From assembly GCA_947177795.1 (NCBI GenBank), contig CAMWVR010000004.1:1-53063 (forward strand): 53,063 nucleotides of DNA. The letters are read 5' to 3'. The position numbers were made by a program, and so were the translations under genes. The stretch comes from an uncultured Clostridia bacterium. GTDB lineage: Bacteria; Bacillota; Clostridia; Christensenellales; UBA3700. The notes under the pieces are model-generated. The model worked only from the letters and a program-made list of their open reading frames with translations. It made no database searches and was not told the origin of the DNA. The stretch's first letter is position 1. The number at the start of each line of letters is the position of its first letter. This document shows positions 1 to 52,530 of this stretch, piece after piece.

Positions 1-26
1 GATTAACAAGTTTGAGGAGTGCACAC

Positions 27-983
27 TTGAGAAAAGCATTAATAGTAGGAATAGATAATTATGTTGAAGTGGGTGATCTTTATGGCTGTGTAAATGATGC
101 ATGTGCGATTGCAAATATTTTATCACGTAATGCCGATGGATCGTTGAATTTTGATATTAAGAAAATGTTATCAACTTCGGAAAATAATATTGTTACGAAA
201 AGTGACTTGGAAGATGCAATAATGGAACTATTTTCGGGAGAAGATGAGTTAGCGTTATTTTATTTTTCCGGACATGGATACACAGAAGATAACAATGGAT
301 ACATAATAACTTCAGACGTCAAATTAAGAGGTCGTAATGGAATAAAAATGGATGATATTATGCAGTGGTGTAATAAGTCTAAGGTTAAAAATAAAATTTT
401 AATATTTGATTGTTGTCATGCTGGGGCGGCTGGAGATGATAAATATTTTAATAGCAATTCAATTATTGGAGAAGGGGTTACTATTTTAAGCGCTTGTACA
501 AAAGGTCAATATGCGCTTGAGGAAAGGGGGCATGGTGTTTTTACTAACTTATTGGTTGATGCTTTAAATGGTAGTGGTGCAAATATTCTGGGACAAATAA
601 CCCCTGGTAGCGTTTATGCTCATATAGACCAATCGTTGGGGGCGTGGTCACAGCGTCCAGTTTTCAAAACTAATGTCGAGCAATTTGTAAGTTTAAGACA
701 AGCATTGCCGTCAATAGCAATGGACGATCTTAGACAGATAACTTCATTGTTTACAAATCCAAATGAAGAGTTTAAATTAAATCCTACATTTGAGCCAGAT
801 AGTATGTGTCCAGATAATGAGAACACTAGAAAGTTTGCAATATTGCAGAAAATGGTAAGGGTTAACTTGGTTGTTCCTGTAGGGGAGCAACATATGTATT
901 ACGCAGCGATGAATTCTAAAGCTTGTAAATTAACGGCGCTTGGAGCGCATTATTGGCAATTAGTAAAAAACGAAAGAATTTAG
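27..983 (+). CDS. Caspase-like cysteine peptidase (C14/metacaspase-type catalytic domain) with an uncharacterised ~100-aa C-terminal domain
   Basis: ORF track 12..983. Dyad-like motifs FYFSGHGY (His) and FDCCHAG (Cys). GAGGAG at 14-19 lies 7 nt before TTG at 27 (M-RKALIVGIDNY), so 27 is preferred over the track start at 12. Confidence 0.8.
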   Translation: MRKALIVGIDNYVEVGDLYGCVNDACAIANILSRNADGSLNFDIKKMLSTSENNIVTKSDLEDAIMELFSGEDELALFYFSGHGYTEDNNGYIITSDVKLRGRNGIKMDDIMQWCNKSKVKNKILIFDCCHAGAAGDDKYFNSNSIIGEGVTILSACTKGQYALEERGHGVFTNLLVDALNGSGANILGQITPGSVYAHIDQSLGAWSQRPVFKTNVEQFVSLRQALPSIAMDDLRQITSLFTNPNEEFKLNPTFEPDSMCPDNENTRKFAILQKMVRVNLVVPVGEQHMYYAAMNSKACKLTALGAHYWQLVKNERI

Positions 984-993
984 GAGTACAAAT

Positions 994-1380
994 ATGAGAA
1001 AGAAAGCTTTTATAAGTTTTGACTATGATCATGACGAGGAATTAAAAGTTGCTTTAGTAGGCCAAGCCAAAAATCCAGATTCCCCGTTTTCAATTAATGA
1101 TATGTCCATAAAGGAAGCTATTACATCAAATTGGAAATATTATGCAAGGCAGAGAATTAGAAAGTGTGATGTAGTAATTGTTATTTGTGGTCGTTATACT
1201 AATACAGCAACAGGGGTGTCGGCAGAATTAACAATTGCACAGGAAGAAGGAGTCCCATATTTTCTTTTATGTGGGCGAGCAGACGGTAATGTAGTAAAAC
1301 CAAGGGGAGCTCTTTCAACGGATAAAATATATACTTGGTCTTGGGAAAATTTAAAGTTATTAATAAACGGTAAAAGATAG
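994..1380 (+). CDS. TIR-like domain protein (MTH538/DUF1863-type TIR-like fold)
   Basis: 128 aa. The N-terminal KKAFISFDYDHD segment, then VVIVICGRYT and ELTIAQEEGVPYF, are typical of the TIR-like flavodoxin fold. AGGAG RBS upstream. 10-nt gap to the caspase-like gene. Confidence 0.7.
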   Translation: MRKKAFISFDYDHDEELKVALVGQAKNPDSPFSINDMSIKEAITSNWKYYARQRIRKCDVVIVICGRYTNTATGVSAELTIAQEEGVPYFLLCGRADGNVVKPRGALSTDKIYTWSWENLKLLINGKR

Positions 1381-1437
1381 ATAATTATGTACTACGCGCC
1401 TATCTATGCGTAGATTTTGCCATATTCACACACCAGG

Positions 1438-1468
1438 GCAGTCTCGAGGTATCGAGACTGCTATTTTT
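1438..1468 (+). terminator. Rho-independent terminator of the caspase/TIR-like operon
   Basis: gcagtctcga-ggta-tcgagactgc gives a 10-bp perfect stem, followed by tattttt. Confidence 0.8.
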
Positions 1469-1556
1469 GTGGGATAACTGCGACAGCGTTGCATTTTTGT
1501 GAAATTTTTTGGTTATTTTTATATGGCATTTTATAATTTTAGTAAATAAAATGTTA

Positions 1557-1583
1557 ATTCCAAAAAAAGTATACTTTTACTGA
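1557..1583. repeat. Left arm of a 27-bp perfect inverted repeat
   Basis: attccaaaaaaagtatacttttactga. Its exact reverse complement occurs at 1666-1692. Confidence 0.95.
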
Positions 1584-1626
1584 CTGACGCGATTAATGAC
1601 GCGAAAAAGCGATTTTTGATGGATTT

Positions 1627-1655
1627 ATTATATTTTGAAGAGGTTTTTTTGTCAA
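1627..1655 (-). promoter_or_regulatory. Perfect consensus sigma-70-type promoter inside the IR-flanked segment, currently firing leftward
   Basis: The minus strand reads TTGACA (1655-1650), a 17-nt spacer aaaaaacctcttcaaaa, then TATAAT (1632-1627). An A/T-rich tract lies upstream of the -35 box. Confidence 0.7.
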
Positions 1656-1665
1656 TATTTTTTAA

Positions 1666-1692
1666 TCAGTAAAAGTATACTTTTTTTGGAAT
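1666..1692. repeat. Right arm of a 27-bp perfect inverted repeat
   Basis: tcagtaaaagtatactttttttggaat is the exact reverse complement of 1557-1583. The arms are separated by 82 bp. Confidence 0.95.
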
Positions 1693-1875: not shown

Positions 1876-1904
1876 TTGACAACTTTTATCCCAAGTAGTA
1901 ATAT
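1876..1904 (+). promoter_or_regulatory. Promoter for the giant surface-protein operon
   Basis: TTGACA (1876-1881), 17-nt spacer, TAATAT (1899-1904). It lies about 155 nt upstream of the ATG at 2064. Confidence 0.6.
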
Positions 1905-2063: not shown

Positions 2064-5000
2064 ATGAATACGGCGAAGAGTAAATCGGGAAAAATTATTT
2101 GGGTAGTTTTAGCAGCGGTCCTTATTGCGTTCTTGTCAGTGAGCGCATGGTTATCTTTACCTGCTTTTAAGAAAAGTTTTAAAGGCGAAAGCGATACGCC
2201 TATTTCAAATACGGCATTAACGAAATTCAATAAGTTTCAAACTTACGTTATGGCATCTTCGTCGGAAAAAGCCGGCGCATACGCCAATAAACTTGGTATT
2301 CCATCAAAAGATTATATATATATCAGTACTAGCGCAATGAAAATCGAAGGCGGCGTTTGGAACGGTATGAGTTCTACCGACGCCATAGGTAAATACGTTC
2401 ACTTGCTTTTGCCGAACGAAGTCACGTCAATCGATGCAAGTTCGACGAGTACCGCAAACGGTATCGCTTCGGTTATATGGCTTTCTATTACGGCAGATGA
2501 AGGCAGTAATCTATCTTCCATCTCAGGCGCTACCATGGTGGATTCTACCGTGGAAACTGCGTTTAGGAACGGTTGGTTGGAAAGAATAGATTTGAGCAAA
2601 GCAACAAAGTTGAAATCAATTCCCGCATACACGTTTACCGCTTGCGATAGATTGTATGACGTGGCGCTTCCCGATAGCATTACGTCGATAGGAGATAGGG
2701 CCATAGTCGGAAATGCGTTGTGTCATATATCCTTACCCTCGGGACTCGGAGCCGACGGGGGCGGTCTTCATGCCAATGCATTTAACGGTTGCGGAAAACT
2801 AGTTGAAATCGAATTGCCGTCTAACGCCAATAGCACTTTCGTCAATAAAGTTAAAGGTATGGCCTCGATAAGCGAAGCATATCTAAACGTATACGTCAAA
2901 GGAGAGGGACGCTCTTGGTTGGTTCGCACCGCAGACGGTTTTGTATTTTGCAAAAATCTCTTAAGAACAACTTTGCTTGCCAGCGGACTGACGTCTAATG
3001 AAAGTTATACAATCGGCAGATGGTATATGGTAGGATATCACGGAGCAGAGAGCGGCGGAGATACCGTCAATGCGTCGGATAATTATAACGTAATATTACC
3101 TAAGCAAGTAGACCTTGCAAAAAATTCGGATAATCGCTTGGGACAATTTGATTATATCGATTGCTCGGGCAGCGAATTGCAAAACGATTTCAGCGAATTT
3201 ACTACGCAAACGCAACTTGGCAGTAACGTTGCCGTAAATGGGGCAACGGCAAACGGCGACGCAGATGGAATGCGCATAATAGCGGGCGTCCAAAGCGGAG
3301 TAAAGTTGAGATACGATATAGGCAGGCAGGCGTTCTATTATCGTTGGGTATGGCACACTACGATTCCCGACGACGCCGTTAATACAATTGGAGACAGAGC
3401 TTTTCATAATGCGCCGATATGGACGTTTAATTTGGGAGACGTCGCAAAAGTCGGAAGTAAAGGACTGGCTTTTTTGGGAAGAACAACGGGTCTCGTTTTC
3501 TATCTTCCATCTAACAATCCGATAGTGGCTAGCGACGGGTTTTCTTATTCGTTATCTAACGTAACGCGATTGTTTATTTATCGCAATTATGCAGATTACG
3601 ATAATTATTATGTTAATACTGCAACTTACGCTAACAGCGGACTACAAAAGGCTGCGAAAGATTTTTCTGTAGGATCAGGAAAATACTACTCTTATTTAAT
3701 AAATATATTGCCTAACGTGGCTGAATGGGATACGACGGAAAACGAATATCAGTATAAAGCCCACGAAGAAGCTAAGATGCAACGACTATATACGGGAAAT
3801 TTGGCAAAATACGACGGTAATCTTTATAATAACACTTTTAAATACGTGCGTAAAGATTACGACGTATGGGTATATGAAGATCAGTCTTTCCCGTCTATGA
3901 CGGAACAAACGGGATACGCTAAGACCAGCTGGTTTACGGATACGAGTTTTAATAATACCTACACCGAGACTTTGATGAGCGTCGCAGACGCAGGCAGTAA
4001 CGTTACGTCGCTTCGCAATGCCGCAAGCAAGGGCGTTGACGTAATAAATATGTACGCCAAAAAGATAGTGTCCGTCACTCTTGAGAATAAGACGAGAGAG
4101 TATAAAGACAGGTCGTTGCAAGCTCACGAGACGGAAATCACGGGAATACCTTTGGAAATACAGGGCGACTATACGGTGGAAGTAACGCATTACGTAGACA
4201 GCAACGGTATCGAGAAAGATTATAGTTCTATCGGCTCGCTTATTCAAGAAGCGGGTATATATACTATTCAGGTTCAACCCAACGTGAAGTACGGAGAATG
4301 GGACGCAAAAGACGTGCCGACGATGACCGTCACTGTAAATAAGACGGAAATAGATTTGGGAGACTCGAGTATCTTCCGTCTTGGCGTTACGGACGGCATG
4401 ACTCTCAACAATCTCCGTCCCGGAAAGGAAGTCCCCGGTGAGCAGGGTACTTCGCTCTATAAATATAAAAGTTCTTGGTATACCGATAAACAAACCGACG
4501 ATACGCTGGGAGAGTTGATAGAGCAAAGAGACGGGCTTTGGAACAGTTTTGTCCGCGCAGAAGGCGAGGAGATGAAGTTTAGACTCACTCTTATTACCGA
4601 AGTTATCAAGGACGCGCACGACGACAAAACGGGAATTTTTCGGTGTAGTTTCCCCGGTACGGCCAGAAGCGAGTCGGGCGAGTATACCGATCAATTTACA
4701 GTCGAGTTGACGGAAAAAGCAAAAAACAACTATAAATTCGTCGTGACGAACGACTCGTCCCGTCAATTTTACGGATATCCGAACGCCGATCAATCCTTGG
4801 CGACGATCAACAAAACTTGGTATATCGTAAAGCTCAACAACTGGCTTACGACACAGGGAAATAAAGGTAACGACGCGCCGTCTTATCATATGGCGTCGGC
4901 TTGGGAATTCGGTTCTCACGACGTGCCCGAAGCTCCTGCGGTCGCGCTGGGAGACGACGTGAATATCACGTTTAGTTTGGAGCTGACGTCGCAATATATC

Positions 5001-8000
5001 ATCGGCGGCAGCGGTACTTTGATACTGTCGACTGATGAGAAAGGAGACCCTATATCTATTGATAAATACGGCGAGTATATCAATAGCGCATTGCCCGTGG
5101 GCAATTATAGGATCATATATTCGGTTGACTTTAAGAATAACGACAGTACTAAATTCGATACGTTCCAACAAAGCTTTGCCTTTACCGTATACGAAAAAGA
5201 ATTCGTGACGGAAGAAAGCGAGGCTATTAATCAATTGAAGGGCATGACCTTTGAATACGACATGACAATCGCATCGGACTCCTATAAGGAAAACAAAGCC
5301 CTATTTGATTTGAGCAAGCTGAGCTCTACGAGCAAACTGCAAGACATGTTGGGACTCAACGACGCAACGGTGGGTAACACCAAGCGCGTGGGAATATGGG
5401 AAAAGTCTGATTACGACGTTTTCTTCGACAAGCATTTTGAAATTTCTTACAACCTTAACCGTATGTGGAATAATACGTATCTCAATTTGGACGCGCTCCA
5501 AAAAGATTACGCAATGAATACGCCCGACCTATATACCGTGTATTATCAGTTGACGTGCAAAAACCGTAAGTCGCTCGTCAATGAAAACGACGACGCCCGC
5601 AGACAATGCTGTTTTTACGTAGTGGTATATAGAACGCTGAGTACGCCGACGCTGGATGATATAGTGTACACGGGCTTGGATATATATCCGACGATAAAGT
5701 ATCTCAACGGCGAGTTGGCTTTTGAGCAATCGTACTATACGGTATCTTACCCGACGGGTCAAGACAACGTGAATAACGGCGAAAAGAAGGCTATTCTTAA
5801 AATATCCGATAGAGACTATCAACTATACCGTTGGGCGGAAGGAGCGACGGCGGAATACGACGAAAAAATCGTTGAGATATCTTATAAGATTATTGCCGCA
5901 AACAATAGAACTATCGCTCCGCTTTATATGGCGGATTGGTCTTGGAACAGCGAGATCAATTTGGACAATATCGTATGGGAAACGCAATTCGGCAACGTCA
6001 AAGAAAATTTTAAGTTTACTCTCGTGCCCGTACGCAACGGCGAAGACGACGACAGAGAGAACGTCACTGATATCTCAAAGTTTGGAGTTGCGTCGGCAGG
6101 AGTATATACCTTGCACGCATACTGTCCCGCAGATGAGAACGGCAATTGGAATGAATACGAGCAGACTATTACGATAACCGTATCCAAGGCGGTCAACACT
6201 TGGTTTAAGTCGCCGAGTATTACCTCTTGGAGTTGGAATCAATATGAAAATTACGATTGGAGTCTCGGAAGTCCTATAGAGATCCACGCAATACCCAATT
6301 ACTATACTACGTCGACGGAGCGTGAGACAGGATCGGGAAGATTCGACTTCAGAATCTATTCTATCAATGCGGGCGCTACGGGCGACGATAGGTATAACGT
6401 TGTGTATTTCGGCGACGATTTCCACTTCCAATTCGAAAAAGACGCCGACGGGAATTTCTTGACTAACGGAGTCGACCCCAAAGACGGCGGACACTTCAAA
6501 CTACCTATAGACGTTGCGAAAAAACTTGCGACTCTTCCCGCAGGACAGTATTATTTGGTAGCTACCGTCTACGGTCATAATAATTTTACGGGTCTAAACA
6601 ATACGGAGGAATCTTTTGCAAAAGGCGCAGTGCCCTTTACGATTGCTTCTGCAAACAACGTTTGGTCGGATACTATCACTGCGTCCGACTGGGCGTATTC
6701 GGAATTTGAACTAGGCCGTCACATACACACCGGCGAAACAAAGTATGAAACTCAACTTAAATACGTACTGTATACCGACAATACGACGGACGTCGTGACG
6801 GTGGAGGGCGTAAAGCTCGAAAATATCATTGATTTTAACGCTGTCGCGCCGGGATCGAAGTATACATACGCTCAACTCGTCAATATGCTCGGCGTGGGCG
6901 CTTATATGCTCAGAGTACACGGCGACGCCGCACAGCGCAACGAAAGAGGCGGTGTCAATTATCTTGCAATCGACGATCAACGTAAGATTTTGGTCACAAA
7001 AGCCGCAAATACTCTCAGCGATACCTTTACCGTCGACGCTTATACGATAGGATCGAGTACGGAAGGTTTGATTCCCAAATATACAGCCCGCTTTGACAGC
7101 ACACTTGACAGTCCAAACGTAGGCTACCGCATCTCTCAAGGCGGCAAGTACGTCGACGGATTGAGCGATACTTTAACGTCCGACGATATAATAGATTTTA
7201 GCAACTCGTTGACGTATGAAAACTTGTTGAAAAAAATAGCTCAACTCTCAAGTGACGAGAGAGGAAACCAATATACAGTATGGTGGACGACCGTCGGCAG
7301 CGATAACTATTCCGCTCAATACGGTTCAAGAGCCTTTTGGGTATATCTGGGTCAAAACGCTTGGGCAGACGAAGCGCCTAGTATGAACGATTGGACTTAC
7401 GACAAGACGGCGCACGACTTCGATAAGAGCAGCGTAAATCTCGTGCACGAAGTGGACGAGAGCAAGATCAGCGTCGATTATTACGTCGCTACGCTCAACG
7501 AGGACAACGGTCAATACGTCATAGGCTCGTCCTTGACGGGTTGTCCGATTGACACGGGAGTTTATTTCGTCAAAATCACGGTGGGTTCGGACGAATATTA
7601 CAGAGGCTTGTCCGTGGATTTGTTCTTCCGTATAAATATGGCGGACAACGGCTTTAAGACTATGCCGTCGATAAAAGACAACGGCTGGGATTATTCGCAG
7701 TTGCAACTCGAAGATATCAATATAGGTTCGCCTATCAACGAAGAAGAGAATATGGATATCAGATACGTCGTTACCCGTCCGATCAGCGGCAGCGCCGAAG
7801 AAGAACTTATAGCTACGCTGTCTTGGGTGTTGGGACGGGAAATCAACAACAATTTGATTGCTTTGGATTCGTTCTATTCCAAACTCAACGCTTTGGACGT
7901 GGGAGAATATAAATTGAAAATCACGCTTTCGTCTTCGGCTAACTTTAAAGAAACGGCGCTTGATACAATCACGTTGAAAGTAAGTCGGGCTGTGAACGGA

Positions 8001-10952
8001 TACGCAGACGGCAAGTCGCCGACGATCGTCGACAACGCAACCGAGTGGGAGTGGAATGAATATGACGAATCGCTTTGGAAAGAAGTCGCAAGCAAGTTCG
8101 GCGAGATTTCTATCTATATCGACGGAGACGCAGTCGCAGCTTTGTCGGTAACCAATCATCTGTCGAGACTCGAAGTGGGAGAGCATAAAATCAGATTCTT
8201 CGTAAAAGCTACCTCAAACTACGAGGGCTTTGACGAAACGCGTAACTTCTCCGTAATCAAAAACAAAAACGGTTGGAAAGACGGGGATAAAGATAATACG
8301 GCGTTTGTCAACGATTGGACTTGGGGCGAATACGACAACGATATTTCCGGAGGAAGTCCGATATGGAAAGAGCCTTCTCCCAATTACGGTACGTCGCAGG
8401 CTGCGATATACAAAGGTAAAGACGGAGTGGGCGGCGTATTGGTAAGAAGCAACGTAGCGTTGTATTCGCTGGATATAGTAATGAATTCTCTCGACGCAGG
8501 TATGTATTACGTAATTTGGACGGTCGTGGGAGATACCAACTACGAATCCATAACGCGCGAATACATTAACTTCCAAGTAAACGTCAACGAAAACCAATGG
8601 GACCCCGATAAACTTGCTACTATGCGTCCAAACGACAAGAAAGAAACGTCGGGCATAGAGTACGGTTGGACTTGGGGCGAGTACGGAAAAGACGCCGACG
8701 TAGATTACTTTACCGCTCCCGTAGCAAAGTACGGACTCGTGGTGGCAAAGATAACCAAATACGACTCGACCTGGAACAATCCCGAGGTCATTGTCGACGG
8801 TATTTCCAATTCTATCAGTATAGCCAATACCTTGGACCGTCTTGCCGTAGGTAGATATAGAATCGAGTGGTCGGCTACGGATCCCAACGCCACGGGCAAC
8901 TTTAAAGAAATAAGTTATCCCGACGCAATCGAGTTTATAATAAACAGAGGAGTCAACGCCTGGACGGGCGATAAGCCATTTATAGACGGCTGGCAGTGGG
9001 GAGCCTTTGACAGCAGTCTGTGGAAAGCGCCCGGGCTGGCATCTGGCAGTCCCAACGCAACGGTAATAATGCTCAATAGCGACGGAACGGACGGAGCGCA
9101 TATAATCGAGAAAATCTCCGCAGAGTATCTAAGCGCCCAACTTGCTTTGCTCGAAGTGGGCAATTACCGCCTCGTATGGACTGCGGACGAAAACGACAAT
9201 TATGAAATCGAAGGCGAGAACGAAGACGATTTGAGATTCCAAGTATCCGTCAACGTCAACGGGTGGGTAATCAAACCCGAAATTACGGCAACGGACAGTA
9301 AGTGGCAGTGGAAAACCTTTACGTTGGGATTTTGGCAAAGACCCGAGGCGCAATATCATCACAACGATATAAGCGCAACGGTATATAAACTCAAAGACGG
9401 CTATGACTTCGAATACGATGAATTCAATAAAAAATATATACTGGACGAGAGCAAATGCGACGTCATCGACGGTATCACGCTCTCTACTCTCGACGCAATC
9501 AATAATCTGTCTATAGGCAAATACCTAGTCAAAGTAAGCGTACCTCAAGACGCTCACGGGAGATTCTTGGGATTGGAGTCGGTGCTGCCCTTTACTATCG
9601 TGGCTAACGAGAATGATTTCATTTCTAAATCTTGCCATATCAACGGATACGCATACGCAGACTTCAGAGGATATTGGAGCGCGCCTGCCGCGCAGTTCGG
9701 CGATATTATCGCAAGCGTATATGCGATGAAAGACGGCGTCAGAGAATTGGTGGCAACGTCTCATACGGATCGTCTCAACGACGTACTCAAAGAGCTTCAT
9801 GCGGGTAACTACGAGGTGGATTGGACTATCTCCGAAGATCCCGACGGAAACTATCTCGGCGGTAAAACTACGACGAGCGCGTTCACAGTAAGCAAGGCGG
9901 ACAACAAGTGGTTGAATAAACCCGCTATTAACGGTTGGGCATGGGGATCGTTCGACGCCGAAAATTCGGGACTCAACGCCCTTCCGCTCAATACTCAAGA
10001 AGGCGTCGCCGTATATTACAAGATAGTAGACGAATCTTATAACGATATCGGCGAGTTCAACGGATACGTAGACGCTCAAGGATACTTTACGGATATAGCC
10101 AAGGTTGCGGAAGCTCTCAAGAAGCTCAAACCCGCTAAGTATCATCTTTTGGCGTACTATCCCGAGATTGACGATTATAACGTACTCGACGATAATAACG
10201 ACTGCGAGTTTGCCGTCAAACATGCCGAAAATAAGTGGTTAATGACGCCTGATATCGTGGATTGGGTCTACGGCAGTCCTGTCAATAAGCCTACGGGCAG
10301 CGCAATTTACGGCGAAGAAATCAAGTATACTTACTATAAAGCTGTACTCGACGCCAACGGCGAACCCGTATTCAAAAACGGTAAATATCAAGTCGTGGAA
10401 AACTCCGCGTTTAGCGGCTGGAGCAAAGACGAAATCGCAGACGCAGGCGTATATATCGTGCAGGCGGACGTGGAGGGCAGCGAATATTACGCTCCGCTTT
10501 CTACGCAGTTCGTGCTTCGCATATCTAATTCTAAATACAACTATTGGAAGACTCAACCGATAATTCAAAGTTGGGTGTCGGGTTCCGATAAATGCTTGCC
10601 CGAAGGAGAGGCGGCGTACGGCAGTATTACTTGGACGTATTATAAGGCCGCTTGGAGCGAAGCGCTAAATAAATGGGTTCCGACGGGCGAGGCGCTCTCT
10701 ACCGACGGACAAAATCCCCCGGAGGAAGTAGGTCAATATATTCTCGTCGCAAGCGTCGGCGCTGCGGAAGGATATAACGCTTTGATAGCAAACGTATACT
10801 TTGAGATATACGAAAGAGCGACGGCGGCAATCTCGAGCGACTTGCTCGTGTATATAGACATAGCGTTGGCAACGGCGGCGTCAATATTTACAATAGTAGT
10901 CATAAGCGCAGTAGTAAGGAGGTATAGAAAGAATGACAGCGTTAATGAATAA
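2064..10952 (+). CDS. Giant (2962 aa) cell-surface protein: N-terminal signal-anchor helix, BspA-type leucine-rich repeats, many Ig-like/Trp-rich tandem modules, C-terminal TM anchor
   Basis: Strong RBS GAAGGAG before the ATG. N-terminal helix IIWVVLAAVLIAFLSVSAW. LRR motif IPAYTFTACDRLYDVALPDSITSIGDRAIVGN. C-terminal helix LLVYIDIALATAASIFTIVVISAVV followed by RRYRK. All other-frame ORFs inside are short shadows. Confidence 0.9.
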   Translation: MNTAKSKSGKIIWVVLAAVLIAFLSVSAWLSLPAFKKSFKGESDTPISNTALTKFNKFQTYVMASSSEKAGAYANKLGIPSKDYIYISTSAMKIEGGVWNGMSSTDAIGKYVHLLLPNEVTSIDASSTSTANGIASVIWLSITADEGSNLSSISGATMVDSTVETAFRNGWLERIDLSKATKLKSIPAYTFTACDRLYDVALPDSITSIGDRAIVGNALCHISLPSGLGADGGGLHANAFNGCGKLVEIELPSNANSTFVNKVKGMASISEAYLNVYVKGEGRSWLVRTADGFVFCKNLLRTTLLASGLTSNESYTIGRWYMVGYHGAESGGDTVNASDNYNVILPKQVDLAKNSDNRLGQFDYIDCSGSELQNDFSEFTTQTQLGSNVAVNGATANGDADGMRIIAGVQSGVKLRYDIGRQAFYYRWVWHTTIPDDAVNTIGDRAFHNAPIWTFNLGDVAKVGSKGLAFLGRTTGLVFYLPSNNPIVASDGFSYSLSNVTRLFIYRNYADYDNYYVNTATYANSGLQKAAKDFSVGSGKYYSYLINILPNVAEWDTTENEYQYKAHEEAKMQRLYTGNLAKYDGNLYNNTFKYVRKDYDVWVYEDQSFPSMTEQTGYAKTSWFTDTSFNNTYTETLMSVADAGSNVTSLRNAASKGVDVINMYAKKIVSVTLENKTREYKDRSLQAHETEITGIPLEIQGDYTVEVTHYVDSNGIEKDYSSIGSLIQEAGIYTIQVQPNVKYGEWDAKDVPTMTVTVNKTEIDLGDSSIFRLGVTDGMTLNNLRPGKEVPGEQGTSLYKYKSSWYTDKQTDDTLGELIEQRDGLWNSFVRAEGEEMKFRLTLITEVIKDAHDDKTGIFRCSFPGTARSESGEYTDQFTVELTEKAKNNYKFVVTNDSSRQFYGYPNADQSLATINKTWYIVKLNNWLTTQGNKGNDAPSYHMASAWEFGSHDVPEAPAVALGDDVNITFSLELTSQYIIGGSGTLILSTDEKGDPISIDKYGEYINSALPVGNYRIIYSVDFKNNDSTKFDTFQQSFAFTVYEKEFVTEESEAINQLKGMTFEYDMTIASDSYKENKALFDLSKLSSTSKLQDMLGLNDATVGNTKRVGIWEKSDYDVFFDKHFEISYNLNRMWNNTYLNLDALQKDYAMNTPDLYTVYYQLTCKNRKSLVNENDDARRQCCFYVVVYRTLSTPTLDDIVYTGLDIYPTIKYLNGELAFEQSYYTVSYPTGQDNVNNGEKKAILKISDRDYQLYRWAEGATAEYDEKIVEISYKIIAANNRTIAPLYMADWSWNSEINLDNIVWETQFGNVKENFKFTLVPVRNGEDDDRENVTDISKFGVASAGVYTLHAYCPADENGNWNEYEQTITITVSKAVNTWFKSPSITSWSWNQYENYDWSLGSPIEIHAIPNYYTTSTERETGSGRFDFRIYSINAGATGDDRYNVVYFGDDFHFQFEKDADGNFLTNGVDPKDGGHFKLPIDVAKKLATLPAGQYYLVATVYGHNNFTGLNNTEESFAKGAVPFTIASANNVWSDTITASDWAYSEFELGRHIHTGETKYETQLKYVLYTDNTTDVVTVEGVKLENIIDFNAVAPGSKYTYAQLVNMLGVGAYMLRVHGDAAQRNERGGVNYLAIDDQRKILVTKAANTLSDTFTVDAYTIGSSTEGLIPKYTARFDSTLDSPNVGYRISQGGKYVDGLSDTLTSDDIIDFSNSLTYENLLKKIAQLSSDERGNQYTVWWTTVGSDNYSAQYGSRAFWVYLGQNAWADEAPSMNDWTYDKTAHDFDKSSVNLVHEVDESKISVDYYVATLNEDNGQYVIGSSLTGCPIDTGVYFVKITVGSDEYYRGLSVDLFFRINMADNGFKTMPSIKDNGWDYSQLQLEDINIGSPINEEENMDIRYVVTRPISGSAEEELIATLSWVLGREINNNLIALDSFYSKLNALDVGEYKLKITLSSSANFKETALDTITLKVSRAVNGYADGKSPTIVDNATEWEWNEYDESLWKEVASKFGEISIYIDGDAVAALSVTNHLSRLEVGEHKIRFFVKATSNYEGFDETRNFSVIKNKNGWKDGDKDNTAFVNDWTWGEYDNDISGGSPIWKEPSPNYGTSQAAIYKGKDGVGGVLVRSNVALYSLDIVMNSLDAGMYYVIWTVVGDTNYESITREYINFQVNVNENQWDPDKLATMRPNDKKETSGIEYGWTWGEYGKDADVDYFTAPVAKYGLVVAKITKYDSTWNNPEVIVDGISNSISIANTLDRLAVGRYRIEWSATDPNATGNFKEISYPDAIEFIINRGVNAWTGDKPFIDGWQWGAFDSSLWKAPGLASGSPNATVIMLNSDGTDGAHIIEKISAEYLSAQLALLEVGNYRLVWTADENDNYEIEGENEDDLRFQVSVNVNGWVIKPEITATDSKWQWKTFTLGFWQRPEAQYHHNDISATVYKLKDGYDFEYDEFNKKYILDESKCDVIDGITLSTLDAINNLSIGKYLVKVSVPQDAHGRFLGLESVLPFTIVANENDFISKSCHINGYAYADFRGYWSAPAAQFGDIIASVYAMKDGVRELVATSHTDRLNDVLKELHAGNYEVDWTISEDPDGNYLGGKTTTSAFTVSKADNKWLNKPAINGWAWGSFDAENSGLNALPLNTQEGVAVYYKIVDESYNDIGEFNGYVDAQGYFTDIAKVAEALKKLKPAKYHLLAYYPEIDDYNVLDDNNDCEFAVKHAENKWLMTPDIVDWVYGSPVNKPTGSAIYGEEIKYTYYKAVLDANGEPVFKNGKYQVVENSAFSGWSKDEIADAGVYIVQADVEGSEYYAPLSTQFVLRISNSKYNYWKTQPIIQSWVSGSDKCLPEGEAAYGSITWTYYKAAWSEALNKWVPTGEALSTDGQNPPEEVGQYILVASVGAAEGYNALIANVYFEIYERATAAISSDLLVYIDIALATAASIFTIVVISAVVRRYRKNDSVNE
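5886..10810 (+). repeat. At least 15 tandem protein-coding modules (~95-115 aa each) within the giant gene
   Basis: Each module opens with a recurring N-x-W ... W-x-W motif. Examples: NTWFKSPSITSWSWNQYE, NAWTGDKPFIDGWQWGAFD, NKWLNKPAINGWAWGSFD, NGWVIKPEITATDSKWQWKTF, NYWKTQPIIQSWVSGSD. Each has a mid-module G-x-Y hydrophobic core. Confidence 0.8.
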
Positions 10953-24030: not shown

Positions 24031-24053
24031 AGTTGCGGATAATAATTTGCATT

Positions 24054-24276
24054 AGATTCTTCGACTGCGTTGCACTCCGCTCAGAATGACTCGTTTAAAG
24101 CGAGAGTTAAGCCTTGAATGCGTCACTCTGAGCGTGGCGTATGGCGGAGTCGAAGAGTCTATTCTATGTTACCTCGACCGCAGTGGAGAGGTCTCTATCC
24201 GTATTAGATTTCTCCGTACGGTAGCAAGCGTCAGAGTCTAAATTGATTGAGATTTCTCGACTTCGCTCGAAATGAC
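24054..24276. repeat. Cluster of five hairpin repeat units
   Basis: Units: 24054-24090 (TTCT/AGAA, forward), 24122-24160 (reverse, CTCT/AGAG), 24168-24194 (reverse, CCTC/GAGG), a degenerate unit at 24206-24238, and 24250-24276 (TTTC/GAAA). Confidence 0.8.
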
Positions 24277-24306
24277 ATTGTAATAGTTGATTGAGGGAAC
24301 AATACG

Positions 24307-30986: not shown

Positions 30987-31207
30987 AATATACACACTGG
31001 AGCGACCGCAGAGATTAGTTATATTTTTGTCCGTGCGAGGGCGAGATGAAGGCAAAGTCAAAGTTAAGTAAAGACTGCGGAGATTGGTGTGATTTTCGTA
31101 CGTGAGACGGTAACCGAGCGGTGAGCGTACTATATGTACGTGATCCAGAGGGCATCCAGTCTTTAGGACGGAAGGCGCGCCGATATACGCAGTCGAGAAA
31201 GGATAGT

Positions 31208-33588: not shown

Positions 33589-33903
33589 AGATTTCTCCAT
33601 TTCGTTTCACTTCGCTAAATATGATATTATAAGGATAGAGATTTCTCCACTACGCTCCGCTTCGGTCGAAATGACATATTATATTTGAGCGTCAATGACA
33701 ATATATTTTATGTCACCTCGAGCGCAGTCGAGAGGTCTCAACCGTTTATTAAGTACCGACAAAATGGAGCCTTGCGACATTTTCGTTTGGTCGGTAGGGC
33801 GAAGTCCAACCGTACGTTTAGCAATTACTTTGCTTGCCAAAGTCATTGCGTATTGTTAGGTTGTGACGCACGCCCCGTCACCTCGAGCGTAGTCGAGAGG
33901 TCT
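33589..33903. repeat. Dense repeat cluster filling the metH-nudix intergenic region
   Basis: Hairpin units at 33589-33625 (degenerate), 33639-33675, 33712-33738 (reverse) and 33877-33903 (reverse). Type-B hairpin at 33754-33796. Extra hairpin at 33821-33849. Confidence 0.85.
33754..33796 (+). repeat. Type-B 43-nt hairpin repeat, copy 1
   Basis: taccgacaaaatggagccttgcgacattttcgtttggtcggta. Matches the reverse complement of 42209-42251 at 41 of 43 positions. Confidence 0.85.
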
Positions 33904-33933
33904 CTAACAGATTAGCATATAGGAAAAGTTTAT

Positions 33934-44221: not shown

Positions 44222-44258
44222 TAAGATCTCGCCGTGGCGGCGAGGTCTTATGCTTTTT
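44222..44258 (+). terminator. Rho-independent terminator
   Basis: taagatctcgcc-gtggc-ggcgaggtctta (12-bp stem with one G-U pair), then tgcttttt. Confidence 0.75.
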
Positions 44259-44273
44259 ATTTTTATACTGATG

Positions 44274-44422
44274 AGATTTCTCCACTTCGGTCGAAATGAT
44301 ATATTATATTTGAGCAGCAATGACAAAAGATTTTATGTCACCTCGAGCGCAGTCGAGAGGTCTAATCCTATTATTAAATTGGTAGAGATTTCTCCATTTC
44401 GCTGCGCTTCAGTCGAAATGAC
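44274..44422. repeat. Repeat cluster of three hairpin units plus a conserved spacer
   Basis: 44274-44300 (TTTC/GAAA). 36-nt spacer at 44301-44336. 44337-44363 (reverse, identical to 33712-33738). 44386-44422 (37-nt class). Confidence 0.85.
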
Positions 44423-44556
44423 AGATTATATCCGAGCAGCAGTGACATTTGGGGCTTGTTCCTTTACATAAAATTTGCACAATTTAGATTAGTTTTACAA
44501 GTGGCGTATTGATATGAAATAGGCGTTGTGATAAAATAAACATGAAGAGGTGTTGT

Positions 44557-48164: not shown

Positions 48165-49208
48165 TTATTCTTCGATTTGAGTTACGTTGATTTTCGTTAC
48201 AGTTGCTACCTGATCTCTATCTACTTCAAACATATAGGCACACGTCGTAATAGGCCATGGAATATAATAATCATCTGATTTTGGAGTAGACAACGTTATA
48301 TTTAATAAATCGTCTTTTATATCAAAGCTTTTTACTTTATAGAATCGGCTTTGTACTCTTCCTACAAATATTAGTATAAGAGATTTATTTTGGAAATAGG
48401 CGTCATCGTATTTTTCTAAAAGCGCAATAAATCTTTCTATAGTTTCGATAGAAGCATATTCATATATACTAAAATCTTTAAAAATGCTGAGTTCTTCCGA
48501 TGAATTTATTATAGGTGATGACGTAGCGGATTTTATTGTAACTAGATCATTAAAAATCTGTATGCCAACTTTTTGGTCAAGTTCTCCTATGCTTTCTTCC
48601 ACCTTTATTTGATTTATTTCTTTTGCAACTTGTTTGCTTATTTCAAATATGCGTACGTGCGTTCTTACTTCGGTAGTGGCATTGCCATTTGCAGTAACTA
48701 AGTTGACAGTCATTACGCCGTCTTTTATATCTACGGAATCATAAGTATAGTAATCGGCGGTTTCGTTAAATCTAAAAATCAATACAATAGAGCGTTTGCT
48801 AAAGAATTCTTCGTCATATTCATTTAATTTCTTGCTTACGTTATCGGATTTTAAAGTTGTATCTGTTTCGTCAAAGATTTTCAAATGCTTTTCTTCGCAG
48901 AAAGACTTGAGTTCTTCCACGGAGTTTATTTTCTCCGCAATATTGAGCTTGCTTTCGTCGTCGAAATAATCGGAGATATAGGGATTTTGGTCTTTTAAAT
49001 AGAATCGCGTTAGAGAAAGAGTATACGGCTCAATAATCTCATCGTCTCCGCTTGGCGCGCCCGACGGTTGTTCGGTTTCGCTTCCGCTTGGTATGCCTGA
49101 CGGTTGTTCTCTTGGGCGGCTGTTGGGATCGCAAGCGCACAGAATTGCTGACGTAGATAATACGCCGATCAACAACATTGCCATAAAAAAGCGTTTGAAA
49201 GATTTCAT
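48165..49208 (-). CDS. Two-domain lipoprotein, paralog P1 (domain types alpha + A)
   Basis: Signal peptide MKSFKRFFMAMLLIGVLSTSAILCAC. EQPSGxPSG linker, two copies. Two copies of a ~130-aa domain. Confidence 0.85.
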   Translation of the reverse strand: MKSFKRFFMAMLLIGVLSTSAILCACDPNSRPREQPSGIPSGSETEQPSGAPSGDDEIIEPYTLSLTRFYLKDQNPYISDYFDDESKLNIAEKINSVEELKSFCEEKHLKIFDETDTTLKSDNVSKKLNEYDEEFFSKRSIVLIFRFNETADYYTYDSVDIKDGVMTVNLVTANGNATTEVRTHVRIFEISKQVAKEINQIKVEESIGELDQKVGIQIFNDLVTIKSATSSPIINSSEELSIFKDFSIYEYASIETIERFIALLEKYDDAYFQNKSLILIFVGRVQSRFYKVKSFDIKDDLLNITLSTPKSDDYYIPWPITTCAYMFEVDRDQVATVTKINVTQIEE

Positions 49209-49326
49209 AGTTTTCCCTCCTATTATAATATATTCAATATAAATATATATTGTTAACTATAATTTTTGCTAAATATAAAAATAATAATCAAAATAAATTT
49301 TAATCTTTTGTATTAGGAGTATTTAT

Positions 49327-49356
49327 AGTATATCATAGGGTTTTGCCGCATGTCAA
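49327..49356 (-). promoter_or_regulatory. Internal promoter ahead of P1 and the protease
   Basis: The minus strand reads TTGACA (49356-49351), an 18-nt spacer, then extended -10 TGaTATACT (49335-49327). Confidence 0.5.
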
Positions 49357-49448
49357 TAGAAGCTTAAAAATTTATTAAAAATTTTTAACCTAATTTTACG
49401 CTACACGGCATACATAATTGCGCAACGAAGTCGAATAATATGAAAAGT

Positions 49449-50504
49449 TTATTCTTCAATTTCATTGACGTTTATTTGGTTAACGTTTGCTATCATATCT
49501 TTGTCCATTTCCAATATATATACGCAGGTAATAACATCGCAGGGATAAAAAGCCGGTTCGCTTGGAAGTTTCCTTGACAAAGTTATATTTAATGAGTTTT
49601 CATTGATTTCAAAATCTTTGACTCTAAAGAAATATCCGCTGCTTGCTCTAAATCTAAATAAAACCACTATTGACTTGTTTTGGAAAAATTCTTCATCATA
49701 TTTTTTTAAAGTTTCGATAATTTTATTATTTTGTCCAGTCAGTTTGTCGTCTGAAAATATCGGAGAAGTCTCTACATCGCAAAACGTATTGATTTCTTCA
49801 GTAGTATTTATAATGGCAGAGTAATTGGACTCTATATCTAATGAACTATCATCATAAATTTTAATGCCTATTTTTTGATCGAGTTCTCCTATGCTTTCTT
49901 CCACTTTTATTTCATTTATTTCTTTTGCTACTTGTTTGCTTATTTCAAATATGCGAACCTGGGTAGTAACGTCGGTAGTGGTATTGCCGTTGGCAGTAAC
50001 TAAGTTGACGGTCATTACGCCGTCTTTTATATCTATGGAATCATAAGTATAGAAGTCGGTGGTTTCTTTAAATCTGAAAATCAATACGATAGATCGCTTG
50101 CTAAAGAATTCTTCGTCGCATTCCTTTAATTTCTTGCTTACTTTATCGTATTTTAGAGAAGTATCCGTTTCGTCAAAGACTTTCAAATGCTTTTCTTCGC
50201 AGAAAGACTTGAGTTCTTCCACGGAGTTTATTTTCTCCGCAATATTAAGCTTGCTTTCGTCATTGAAATAATCGGAGATATAAGGATTCCGATTTTCTAA
50301 ATAGAATTGCGTTAGAGAAAGAGTATACGGCTCAATAATCTCATCGTTTCCGCTTGGCGCGCCCGATGGTTGTTCAGTTTCGCTTGGTACACCTGACGGT
50401 TGTTCTGTTGGGCGATCGTTGGGATTGCAAGCGCCCAGAATTGCTGACGTAGACAATACGCCGATTAACAACATTGCCATAAAAAAGCGTTTAAAAAATT
50501 TCAT
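49449..50504 (-). CDS. Two-domain lipoprotein, paralog P2 (beta + B)
   Basis: Canonical lipobox ILGAC. Two EQPSG linker copies. Confidence 0.85.
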   Translation of the reverse strand: MKFFKRFFMAMLLIGVLSTSAILGACNPNDRPTEQPSGVPSETEQPSGAPSGNDEIIEPYTLSLTQFYLENRNPYISDYFNDESKLNIAEKINSVEELKSFCEEKHLKVFDETDTSLKYDKVSKKLKECDEEFFSKRSIVLIFRFKETTDFYTYDSIDIKDGVMTVNLVTANGNTTTDVTTQVRIFEISKQVAKEINEIKVEESIGELDQKIGIKIYDDSSLDIESNYSAIINTTEEINTFCDVETSPIFSDDKLTGQNNKIIETLKKYDEEFFQNKSIVVLFRFRASSGYFFRVKDFEINENSLNITLSRKLPSEPAFYPCDVITCVYILEMDKDMIANVNQINVNEIEE

Positions 50505-50521
50505 AGTCTTTCCCCCTATAT

Positions 50522-51532: not shown

Positions 51533-51549
51533 AGTCTTTTCCCCTATAT

Positions 51550-52512: not shown

Positions 52513-52530
52513 AGTCTTTCCCCCTATATT

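What the first reader, a model, noticed from the sequence alone, without database searches (positions are those of the whole stretch)
1557..1692. Candidate invertible promoter: 27-bp perfect inverted repeats flank 82 bp carrying a perfect TTGACA-17-TATAAT promoter
**Seen in sequence**
- 1557-1583 and 1666-1692 are exact reverse complements (27/27).
- The enclosed 82 bp contain, on the minus strand, TTGACA, exactly 17 nt, then TATAAT, with an A/T-rich tract upstream.
- This is the only fully consensus promoter I found in the window.

**Inference**
- This is the classic layout of a recombinase-flipped phase-variation switch (inverton).
- In the present orientation the promoter fires leftward. 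It would read antisense into the 3' end of the TIR/caspase cassette, whose terminator has no U-tract in that direction.
- After inversion it would fire rightward toward the 2962-aa surface-protein gene, about 370 nt away.
- The switch could therefore toggle between silencing a defence cassette and boosting a giant adhesin-like gene.

**Limits**
- No recombinase gene lies in the window. It would have to act in trans or lie upstream.
Basis: partly seen in the sequence, partly recalled or inferred. Interest (0 to 1): 0.85.

Follow-up and report, generated by a model that had tools for sequence, protein, structure and literature searches.

The report
Multi-copy invertible promoter family member
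The 136-bp element is an intact copy of a compact promoter cassette found at least about a dozen to two dozen times per genome in Christensenellales gut bacteria, usually beside giant surface-protein genes and in both directions, so it is very probably a phase-variation switch; flipping was not seen at this locus, and the idea that it silences the neighbouring defence genes is not supported.

Summary
Positions 1557-1583 and 1666-1692 are 27/27 reverse complements. The 82 bp between them carry the window's only 12/12 TTGACA-17-TATAAT, on the minus strand.

The element is not unique. A 24-mer of the repeat hit at least 99 stretches in nine Christensenellales metagenome-assembled genomes (MAGs), always as arm pairs bounding 124/125- or 135/136-bp elements. 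Across 53 aligned copies the -10 and the TTG of the -35 never change, while the 17-nt spacer varies.

Most copies sit next to a giant surface-protein gene: 28 point away from it (OFF) and 5 point into it (ON).

Evidence for inversion:
- Identical interiors occur flipped between conserved flanks.
- Two orthologous loci differ in orientation between species.
- An outer-arm base variant stays with the gene-side flank in 30 of 30 copies.
- One assembly forks exactly at the junction.
- There is no target-site duplication.

So this is a new family of a known kind, the invertible promoter.

Limits:
- The window's own locus was seen in one orientation only.
- No recombinase was found.
- The giant gene keeps its own conserved promoter at 1876-1904.
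- The caspase-TIR cassette is a mobile island found elsewhere without this element, so "defence silencing" is unsupported.

The parts
1557..1583 (.). Left inverted-repeat arm, ATTCCAAAAAAAGTATACTTTTACTGA. It is the proposed recombination site and matches the family consensus with no mismatch.
1666..1692 (.). Right inverted-repeat arm, the exact reverse complement of the left arm.
1565..1578 (.). 14-nt perfect palindrome AAAAGTATACTTTT inside the left arm (its twin lies at 1671-1684). It is the likely recombinase-dimer core. Arm variants place the crossover inward of arm position 12, probably in GTATACTTTT.
1584..1665 (.). 82-bp invertible interior of the long size class, homologous to the interiors of 52 other aligned copies.
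1627..1655 (-). Consensus sigma-70-type promoter TTGACA-17-TATAAT, now firing leftward, away from the giant gene (OFF). The hexamers are invariant or nearly so across the family, while the spacer varies.
1584..1620 (+). Hairpin plus T-run on the strand opposite the promoter (CTGACGCG...GCGATTTTTG). It is weak in this copy. In other long-class copies the same position holds a clear intrinsic terminator.
1876..1904 (+). Fixed promoter of the giant gene, TTGACA-17-TAATAT. It is conserved in homologous leaders that lack the invertible element.
2064..10952 (+). 2962-aa surface protein gene (BspA-type LRR, N-terminal and C-terminal membrane-anchor helices). It is the only plausible target of the switch, 371 nt from the right arm.
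1437..1493 (+). Two plus-strand terminators (1437-1462 and 1479-1493) between the TIR gene and the element. Neither has a T-run for leftward transcription.

Best explanation
Positions 1557-1692 are an intact member of a multi-copy family of compact invertible promoter cassettes in Christensenellales. A site-specific recombinase encoded elsewhere in the genome is inferred to bind the 27-bp arms. Each arm is a pseudo-symmetric site centred on GTATAC. The recombinase would exchange strands inside the arms and flip the 82-bp interior.

The interior carries a consensus promoter on one strand. In most family members it also carries a hairpin plus T-run, an intrinsic terminator, on the other strand. 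In the present (OFF) state the promoter fires away from the 2962-aa surface-protein gene, and the hairpin/T-run faces transcription coming from the left. After inversion (ON) the strong promoter would fire rightward through the arm and the 371-nt leader, adding to the gene's own fixed promoter at 1876-1904.

Across the family the same device sits beside giant surface-protein genes. Most copies are OFF and a few are ON in each genome, which is the pattern expected for phase-variable expression of a surface-protein repertoire.

Shown: the anatomy, family membership, conservation of the promoter hexamers, and both orientations at family level.
Inferred: the recombinase, ongoing flipping at this particular locus, and the transcriptional consequences.
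For: Repeat and promoter. The repeat is exact and the promoter is 12/12, both far beyond chance.

Family. A 24-mer of the arm hits at least 99 stretches in 9 species-level MAGs. After allowing mismatches the arms always come as pairs, giving 57 complete elements in these MAGs after excluding those with N runs. Their lengths are 124/125 bp (40 copies), 135/136 bp (16 copies) or 105 bp (one degenerate copy).

Promoter under selection. In the 53-copy alignment, TATAAT and the TTG of the -35 are invariant and the spacing is fixed at 17 nt, while the spacer sequence varies.

Position. Elements lie 4-320 nt from the start of a big gene. Of the copies next to a gene of at least 500 aa, 28 are OFF and 5 are ON. 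Fifty-six neighbouring giant ORFs form one protein family; the two scanned carry a Listeria-Bacteroides repeat.

Both orientations.
- L094 has an interior identical to L013 and L067 (same MAG) but flipped between the same conserved flanks.
- The orthologous QueH/ADH locus points one way in L003+L077, L010 and L094 and the other way in L081.
- A second orthologous locus (311-aa gene plus Zn peptidase) differs between L019/L023/L076 and L084.

Crossover inside the arms. The G variant at arm position 12 is on the gene-proximal arm in 24 of 24 OFF copies and 6 of 6 ON copies that carry it, so it follows the flank, not the promoter. The inner variant at position 23 follows the interior.

Fork within one sample. 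JAIDRT contig_20 and contig_56 overlap by exactly 77 nt. The overlap begins with AG plus the arm, which are exactly the bases shared by the two orientations of that interior.

Transposon signs absent. Flanking direct repeats are at chance level, 6 of 57 against about 7 of 57 in shuffles. No arm pair is spaced like a full-length insertion sequence.

Terminator. The hairpin on the anti-promoter strand is 88% paired against 34-60% when the pairing partners are slid. It has 10 cells with changes on both sides, which no shuffle of 500 reached. The scan tool called a 12-bp terminator there in L019.
Against: - At the window's own locus only one orientation was found. L001 and L002 span it in that orientation, and a third contig carrying the TIR gene was not shown. 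L103 ends one base inside the right arm, at 1667, which can be explained in other ways.
- The JGI metagenome collection does not hold the locus at all, so that negative result says nothing.
- No recombinase was found in the window, in the 10 kb upstream, or next to any of about 100 family loci. The exception is a large serine recombinase 6.4 kb from one arm.
- The window's giant protein is not homologous to the 56-member giant family. It has its own conserved promoter, and homologues lack the element, so this copy may add little regulation.
- A weak terminator-like hairpin at 1712-1725 lies between the element and the gene.
- The copies are paralogues, so counts such as 30 of 30 are not independent events.
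- There are no read-level or transcript data.
Confidence: 0.75

Rival explanations
1. The element is a miniature mobile element (MITE-like) with 27-bp terminal inverted repeats that carries an outward-facing promoter. Copies point in different directions because they inserted independently, not because they flip.
For: It is multi-copy, short (124-136 bp) and has terminal inverted repeats. It is present upstream of the window's giant gene but absent from the homologous leaders L133 and L134. Many contigs break inside it, as they do at repeats.
Against: There is no target-site duplication beyond chance. No longer parent element with the same ends appears in about 100 loci. Copies are not scattered at random: they sit at the 5' ends of big genes, between conserved leader and flank sequences. 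The outer-arm variant follows the flank in 30 of 30 copies, whereas a whole-element insertion would carry it along with the promoter. Flipped copies have interiors identical to unflipped paralogues. The k = 77 fork sits exactly at the inversion junction next to unique flank sequence. The L133 and L134 regions upstream of about window position 1810 are simply unrelated, so they are not clean empty sites.
Confidence: 0.12
2. The element is a static regulatory or structural feature. Two identical palindromic operators (AAAAGTATACTTTT) bracket a leftward promoter for repressor looping, or the 27-bp stem acts as a hairpin insulator. Nothing inverts.
For: Each arm contains a perfect 14-nt palindrome, which also reads as a direct repeat 106 nt apart. 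The predicted stem is very stable. Only one orientation is seen at this locus.
Against: The complementarity extends 13 nt beyond the palindrome, which an operator does not need. At family level the promoter is found in both directions between the same flanks and at orthologous loci. In 28 of 33 copies a consensus promoter points at the 3' end of a convergent neighbour, commonly across a bidirectional terminator in the loci examined. That makes no sense for a fixed promoter.
Confidence: 0.05
3. In the present orientation the promoter's main job is antisense silencing of the caspase-TIR defence cassette. After flipping it boosts the giant gene.
For: The promoter faces the 3' end of the TIR gene, 176 nt beyond the left arm. 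The two intervening hairpins lack T-runs for leftward transcription. At one family locus the element does sit between two divergent gene starts, which is a true two-way toggle.
Against: 88-97% identical cassettes occur in many unrelated contexts, and none of 27 such loci has the repeat. The cassette has lower GC than the giant gene and brings its own terminator. In the family the OFF side is a convergent gene's 3' end, commonly behind a bidirectional terminator in the loci examined, so the OFF state appears designed to produce only a short terminated transcript.
Confidence: 0.08

Closest known systems
Bacteroides fragilis capsular-polysaccharide promoter invertons controlled by the global serine invertase Mpi (from my own knowledge of the literature)
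   Same: Many promoter-bearing invertible segments per genome share one inverted-repeat sequence. The recombinase is not linked to most sites. The targets are surface structures, and each locus switches ON or OFF so that cells show a variable surface.
   Different: The phylum differs (Bacillota, order Christensenellales). The repeat sequence is unrelated. The interior is much shorter (70-82 bp against roughly 170-230 bp). The promoter is of the TTGACA/TATAAT type rather than the Bacteroides -33/-7 type. The targets are single giant protein genes, not polysaccharide operons. A terminator is built into the flipping segment. No recombinase has been identified.
Clostridioides difficile RecV-dependent switches (cwpV, flgB, cmrRST, pdcB); PMC5914908, PMC7446863 and PMC9286219 came up in search (titles and abstracts seen, papers not read)
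   Same: It is a Firmicute system. One recombinase acting in trans serves several small invertible sites. One target (cwpV) is a large cell-wall protein, and transcription termination is part of the switch logic.
   Different: The C. difficile sites have dissimilar repeats and number fewer than ten. The cwpV switch has no promoter inside. Here at least about a dozen to two dozen sites share a near-identical 27-bp repeat, and each carries its own promoter.
E. coli fimS (FimB/FimE tyrosine recombinases)
   Same: A promoter lies inside a short invertible segment upstream of a surface-structure gene, giving ON/OFF phase variation.
   Different: fimS is a single locus of 314 bp with 9-bp repeats, and its recombinase genes are adjacent.
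Hin/Gin/Cin/Pin serine invertases with 26-bp hix/gix sites
   Same: The arm length (27-28 bp) and its internal two-fold pseudo-symmetry around a central AT/TA resemble a 12+2+12 site. Here the half-sites match at 8-9 of 12 positions, counted by eye.
   Different: Those systems invert kilobase segments that contain the recombinase gene and an enhancer. Here the segment is 70-82 bp and contains no gene.

Membership tests
Invertible promoter (inverton) flipped by site-specific recombination | A pair of inverted repeats bounding a short DNA segment | tested here: met
   Arms are 27/27 complementary with 82 nt between them.
Invertible promoter (inverton) flipped by site-specific recombination | A promoter inside the segment | tested here: met
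   A 12/12 consensus, unique in the window. The hexamers are invariant in 53 copies while the spacer varies. This is motif-level evidence only; no transcription start data exist.
Invertible promoter (inverton) flipped by site-specific recombination | Both orientations of the segment exist relative to fixed flanks | tested here: inconclusive
   Met for the family: flipped identical interiors, two orthologous loci, and flank-linked arm variants. Not seen at the window's own locus, where the spanning contigs shown have the same orientation.
Invertible promoter (inverton) flipped by site-specific recombination | Mixed orientations within one population or sample | tested here: inconclusive
   One k = 77 assembly fork lies exactly at the inversion junction in sample SC0362. 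A Logan contig ends at window position 1667, which is ambiguous. Raw reads were not available.
Invertible promoter (inverton) flipped by site-specific recombination | A site-specific recombinase (serine, tyrosine or Piv-type) that acts on the repeats | tested here: not met
   None in the window, none in the 10 kb upstream, and none next to about 100 family loci by phmmer. The only hit is a large serine recombinase 6.4 kb from one arm. Whole genomes could not be searched, so a gene acting in trans remains possible.
MITE / non-autonomous transposable element | Target-site duplications flanking the terminal repeats | tested here: not met
   6 of 57 copies have a flanking direct repeat of at least 2 nt, against about 7 of 57 in shuffled pairs.
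MITE / non-autonomous transposable element | An autonomous parent element with the same terminal repeats | tested here: not met
   All arm pairs are 53-109 nt apart start to start, and none is spaced like an insertion sequence. The repeat is absent from viral contigs. Only 8-kb blocks around matches were available.
MITE / non-autonomous transposable element | The whole element, repeats included, behaves as one unit in either orientation | tested here: not met
   The outer-arm variant G12 stays with the gene-side flank in 30 of 30 copies, whatever the direction of the interior.
Hin/Gin-type serine invertase system | The recombinase gene and an enhancer lie inside or next to the invertible segment | tested here: not met
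   The interior is 82 bp and holds no ORF. No resolvase-domain protein is nearby.
Hin/Gin-type serine invertase system | 26-bp sites made of two 12-bp half-sites around a 2-bp core | tested here: inconclusive
   The arm is pseudo-symmetric around the centre of GTATAC (half-sites CCAAAAAAAGTA and TCAGTAAAAGTA, 9 of 12 identical, read). The same layout also fits a tyrosine-recombinase core site.

The most novel reading that the evidence does not exclude
Christensenellales carry a so-far undescribed regulon of at least about a dozen to two dozen ultra-compact (70-82 bp) promoter-plus-terminator invertons per genome. All share one 27-bp site, and the elements come in two length classes one helical turn apart (124/125 and 135/136 bp). 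An unlinked and possibly unusual recombinase flips them to give variegated expression of a repertoire of giant surface proteins. In the OFF state each unit makes a short conserved RNA that ends at a bidirectional terminator. The window's copy shows the device being recruited to an unrelated giant LRR adhesin gene.
Probability: 0.45. Interest if true: 0.7.

Novelty: new member of a known kind. Interest (0 to 1): 0.55.

Why it matters
Christensenellaceae are among the most heritable and health-associated gut bacteria, yet little is known about how they present their surface to hosts, phages and neighbouring microbes. A large set of promoter switches beside giant surface-protein genes would mean that each population is a mosaic of surface types. 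It would also explain why short-read assemblies of these genomes break at the same 125-136-bp sequence, and it gives a ready-made marker for measuring switch states in metagenomes. The very short flipping segment, and the two length classes 11 bp apart, make the system useful for studying how closely two recombination sites can be spaced. For this window in particular, the giant LRR gene should be annotated as having a fixed promoter plus a probable phase-variable booster.

Tried and rejected
- Flipped state in metagenomes. I scanned JGI metagenome contigs for the flipped left junction and then for the interior alone. Both gave 0 hits. The collection lacks this organism, so the result says nothing about flipping.
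- More copies of the window's locus. I looked up contigs carrying the exact TIR and giant proteins. The spanning contigs shown are all forward. One Logan contig ends at 1667; its start one base inside the arm fits a branch on the flank side at least as well as an inversion fork, so I do not count it as evidence.
- TIR homologues as a route to other strains. The cassette turned out to be mobile, and none of 27 loci had the repeat. This was useful only for rejecting the defence-silencing idea.
- Giant-protein homologues. They have no element. The upstream DNA is unrelated beyond about position 1810, so they are not clean empty sites, but they did reveal the conserved fixed promoter.
The ORFs of about 311 aa next to some elements have no Pfam match.
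- Known RNA families. Rfam on 1300-2150 gave no match.
- Phages. The repeat is absent from viral contigs.
- Literature. Searches for Christensenellaceae invertons and for the repeat sequence itself found nothing relevant.
- Contig-end offsets. The amount of interior kept at a contig end equals k minus 27 in several assemblies. This fits an inversion fork and a plain repeat fork equally well, so I used only the one case where unique flank sequence lies inside the k-mer.

Full report
**1. The observation**

The sequence is as described. Positions 1557-1583 (ATTCCAAAAAAAGTATACTTTTACTGA) and 1666-1692 are exact reverse complements, 27 of 27, with 82 nt between them. The 27-mer occurs nowhere else in the 53-kb window, even with three mismatches allowed, and none is expected by chance. 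Folded as single-stranded DNA, the region scores z = -8.1 against shuffles.

On the minus strand, TTGACA (1655-1650), a 17-nt spacer and TATAAT (1632-1627) give a 12/12 match. It is the only exact match in the window on either strand, with zero expected. Each arm also holds a perfect 14-nt palindrome, AAAAGTATACTTTT.

**2. Local context**

To the left lies a two-gene cassette: a caspase-like peptidase C14 (12-983) and a ThsB-like TIR protein (994-1380). It is followed by two plus-strand terminators at 1437-1462 and 1479-1493.

To the right lies a near-consensus promoter, TTGACA-17-TAATAT at 1876-1904. The 2962-aa gene at 2064-10952 follows. Its product has a BspA-type leucine-rich repeat region and hydrophobic anchor helices at both ends.

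The rest of the window holds mostly housekeeping and other chromosomal genes: tRNA synthetases, SpoIIE, MetH and MTHFR, plus ABC transporters and a two-component system. No recombinase is present. The 10 kb upstream, read from a 39-kb contig with the same locus, holds yidC, yidD and rnpA and again no recombinase.

**3. The element is one of many**

All hits are in nine MAGs labelled Clostridia, Christensenellaceae or Christensenella.

With up to four mismatches allowed, every arm inside a fetched 8-kb block has a partner 97-98 or 108-109 nt away, start to start. Single arms occur only at block or contig ends. Fifty-seven complete elements without N runs were recovered from these MAGs. Their lengths are 124/125 bp (40 copies), 135/136 bp (16 copies) and 105 bp (one degenerate copy). 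The two classes differ by 11 bp, about one helical turn.

Lower-bound arm counts per genome are 44, 27, 25 and 22 in the four richest MAGs.

**4. The interior is a conserved promoter cassette**

I aligned 53 copies, each oriented by its promoter. TATAAT and the TTG of the -35 are invariant. The rest of the -35 is TTGCAA in most copies and TTGACA in the window and in L011. The spacing is always 17 nt, but the spacer sequence varies freely. This is the pattern expected when selection acts on promoter function.

Downstream of the -10 there is an A-run and then a hairpin. Read on the opposite strand, this is a hairpin followed by a T-run.
- In the long class it is a 10-12-bp stem. The scan tool called it a terminator in L019 (12 pairs, 7 G-C).
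- In the short class it is a 4-5-bp stem.
- The stem is 88% paired against 34-60% when the pairing partners are slid by 1-3 columns. It has 10 cells with changes on both sides, a value no shuffle of 500 reached.
- In the window's copy this hairpin is weak.

**5. Where the copies sit**

In most complete copies a large ORF starts 4-320 nt from one arm and runs away from the element. Of the copies next to an ORF of at least 500 aa, 28 have the promoter pointing away from that gene and 5 pointing into it (L014, L043, L053, L054, L091). By flank motif, L029, L070 and L094 are also ON.

Fifty-six of these big ORFs form one protein family. The two members scanned with Pfam showed a single Listeria-Bacteroides repeat as their only match.

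On the other side there is usually the 3' end of a convergent housekeeping gene. In the loci I read, a terminator with an A-run before it and a T-run after it lies there, followed by a conserved segment of about 45 nt.

In many copies the distance from the arm to the ATG is below 100 nt, which leaves no room for another promoter. For those genes the cassette is very probably the only promoter.

**6. Evidence that the interior flips rather than being inserted both ways**

(a) L094 carries an interior identical to those of L013 and L067, from the same MAG. In L094 it is reversed between the same conserved flanks (ttacaaactttgatttatagacgaa on one side, tgtgaaaaat..attaaattaga on the other). L070 is likewise reversed relative to L100 and L068.

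(b) An orthologous locus next to a QueH / alcohol dehydrogenase gene block is present in four species. The promoter points away from the block in three (L003+L077, L010, L094) and toward it in one (L081). A second orthologous locus, next to a 311-aa gene and a zinc peptidase gene, points one way in L019, L023 and L076 and the other way in L084.

(c) Some arms read AAAAAAGGTATAC instead of AAAAAAAGTATAC, a G at arm position 12. This variant is on the gene-proximal arm in all 24 OFF copies and all 6 ON copies that carry it. It therefore stays with the flank while the promoter changes sides. Variants at positions 1 and 4 behave the same way. An inner variant at position 23 is on the promoter-downstream arm in 7 of the 8 copies with a known state, including both ON copies. 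Taken together this places the crossover between positions 13 and 22, in GTATACTTTT. The copies are paralogues, so these counts are not independent events.

(d) In MAG JAIDRT, contig_20 ends and contig_56 begins with the same 77 nt, the assembler's k. The shared stretch starts with AG plus the arm. The two possible orientations of that interior end in ...GGCAG and ...TTTAAG, so AG is exactly what they have in common. The rest of the 77-mer is 48 nt of flank found only at that locus among the fetched loci. That is the position where a graph fork is expected if reads of both orientations were present in that sample.

(e) Flanking direct repeats occur no more often than in shuffled pairs. No arm pair is spaced like a full insertion sequence. 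The repeat is absent from viral contigs.

**7. What is specific to the window's copy**

Both arms match the family consensus without a single mismatch, and the promoter is perfect, so the copy looks functional. It differs from the typical copy in three ways.

First, its neighbour gene is not a member of the 56-protein family.

Second, that gene has its own promoter. In two homologous leaders (L133 and L134, whose proteins are 61-68% identical to the window's) the -35 and -10 hexamers of the 1876-1904 promoter are conserved and the spacer varies. The invertible element is absent from the 370-526 nt upstream, and similarity to the window stops near position 1810. Flipping would therefore add a strong upstream promoter rather than provide the only one. 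A weak hairpin/T-run at 1712-1725 lies in the way.

Third, the left neighbour is a defence-type cassette. Its 88-97% identical relatives sit in many unrelated contexts (next to DUF5131, HsdR, flavin reductase and acetyltransferase genes). In the 27 loci examined none has the repeat. The cassette also has lower GC than the giant gene, 32-38% against 42-48%. It looks like an island that landed beside an existing switch.

The spanning contigs shown (L001, L002) hold the present orientation. A Logan contig carrying the exact giant gene ends at 1667, one base inside the right arm. I regard this as ambiguous.

**8. Mechanism proposed**

Each 27-bp arm is a pseudo-symmetric site. Its half-sites, CCAAAAAAAGTA and TCAGTAAAAGTA, lie around the centre of GTATAC (read). 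Such a layout suits a recombinase dimer of either the serine or the tyrosine family. Strand exchange inside the arms flips the interior.

- **ON state.** Transcripts start inside the interior, carry the hairpin near their 5' end, cross one arm and enter the gene.
- **OFF state.** The promoter makes a short transcript toward the neighbour's terminator, and the hairpin/T-run faces any transcription coming toward the gene.

The 11-bp difference between the length classes suggests that the helical phase between the two sites matters. This would be expected when sites only about 100 bp apart have to be brought together. From my own knowledge, Cre needs at least about 82 bp between loxP sites. All of this section is inference; only the anatomy is shown.

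**9. Comparison with known systems and novelty**

In logic, the closest systems are the Bacteroides fragilis polysaccharide promoter invertons under the global invertase Mpi and the Clostridioides difficile RecV switches. fimS is the textbook single-locus case. The arm layout recalls hix sites.

Full-text searches found no paper linking Christensenellaceae with invertons. A paper on deep-learning prediction of invertons does not mention the group. The repeat sequence appears in no relevant paper.

I therefore file this as a new family within a known kind. The "defence silencing" half is not supported.

Noticed in passing
window 48165-53061 (minus strand): A tandem array of five paralogous genes of 320-351 aa (the last is cut by the window end). 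They have lipoprotein-type signal peptides (MKFFKRFFMAMLLIGVLSTS..CAC), are 47-88% identical to each other and have no Pfam match.
   Followed up: partly
window about 24051-24282, 31071-31195, 33611-33909, 44254-44447; also many loci, e.g. L020, L086, L080: Several intergenic stretches share 40-200 nt segments with many of the fetched loci, which suggests one or more short repeat families separate from the invertible element. One such motif, gtcatttcgaccgtagtggagaaatctcaa, recurs in the leaders and flanks of the fetched loci.
   Followed up: no
window 12-1380; L105-L131: The caspase (Peptidase_C14) plus ThsB-like TIR gene pair is a widespread low-GC cassette found next to many different genes in many samples. 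It looks like a mobile defence module. About 3800 homologues of the TIR protein have E <= 1e-10.
   Followed up: partly
L019 1411-1546, L076 1514-1638, L023 7392-7516, L084 7650-7774: At this orthologous locus the element lies between two divergent gene starts: a big gene 20-41 nt away in L019 and L076, and a 311-aa gene plus Zn_peptidase_2 operon 127-220 nt away. Here flipping would be a true two-way toggle. L084 has the opposite orientation to the other three.
   Followed up: partly
e.g. L086 2440-2559, L020 5784-5900, L067 5835-5950: On the OFF side of many copies there is a conserved segment of about 45 nt (tgtgaaaaatc..attaaattagaatttta..) and then a bidirectional terminator. In the OFF state the promoter would produce a conserved short RNA of about 130 nt, with unknown function.
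   Followed up: no
e.g. L086 2684-2810, L004 (reverse) 5700-5846: The leaders of the giant-gene family share a conserved block of about 130 nt. It contains the palindrome TATAGAA-AA-TTCTATA and a GTATAAT motif, so it may be an operator or an RNA element.
   Followed up: no
L134 210-260; L133 105-160: Homologous leaders of the LRR giant gene carry two direct repeats of GATATGTATTGACATTT upstream of the fixed promoter. The window has the invertible element and unrelated sequence in that position.
   Followed up: no
L133 1-45: This public contig begins with Illumina adapter sequence (acactctttccctacacgacgctcttccgatct), which is an assembly artefact.
   Followed up: no
L104 1-1700 (about 9-10 kb upstream of the window start): yidC, yidD and rnpA lie here, followed by a 2.8-kb stretch with no called gene. 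This suggests the locus is close to the chromosomal replication origin.
   Followed up: no
L044 6489-8000: A large serine recombinase (Resolvase, Recombinase and zinc-ribbon domains) lies 6.4 kb from an element arm at a contig start in MAG CAJUOK. It is probably a mobile-element integrase rather than the invertase.
   Followed up: partly
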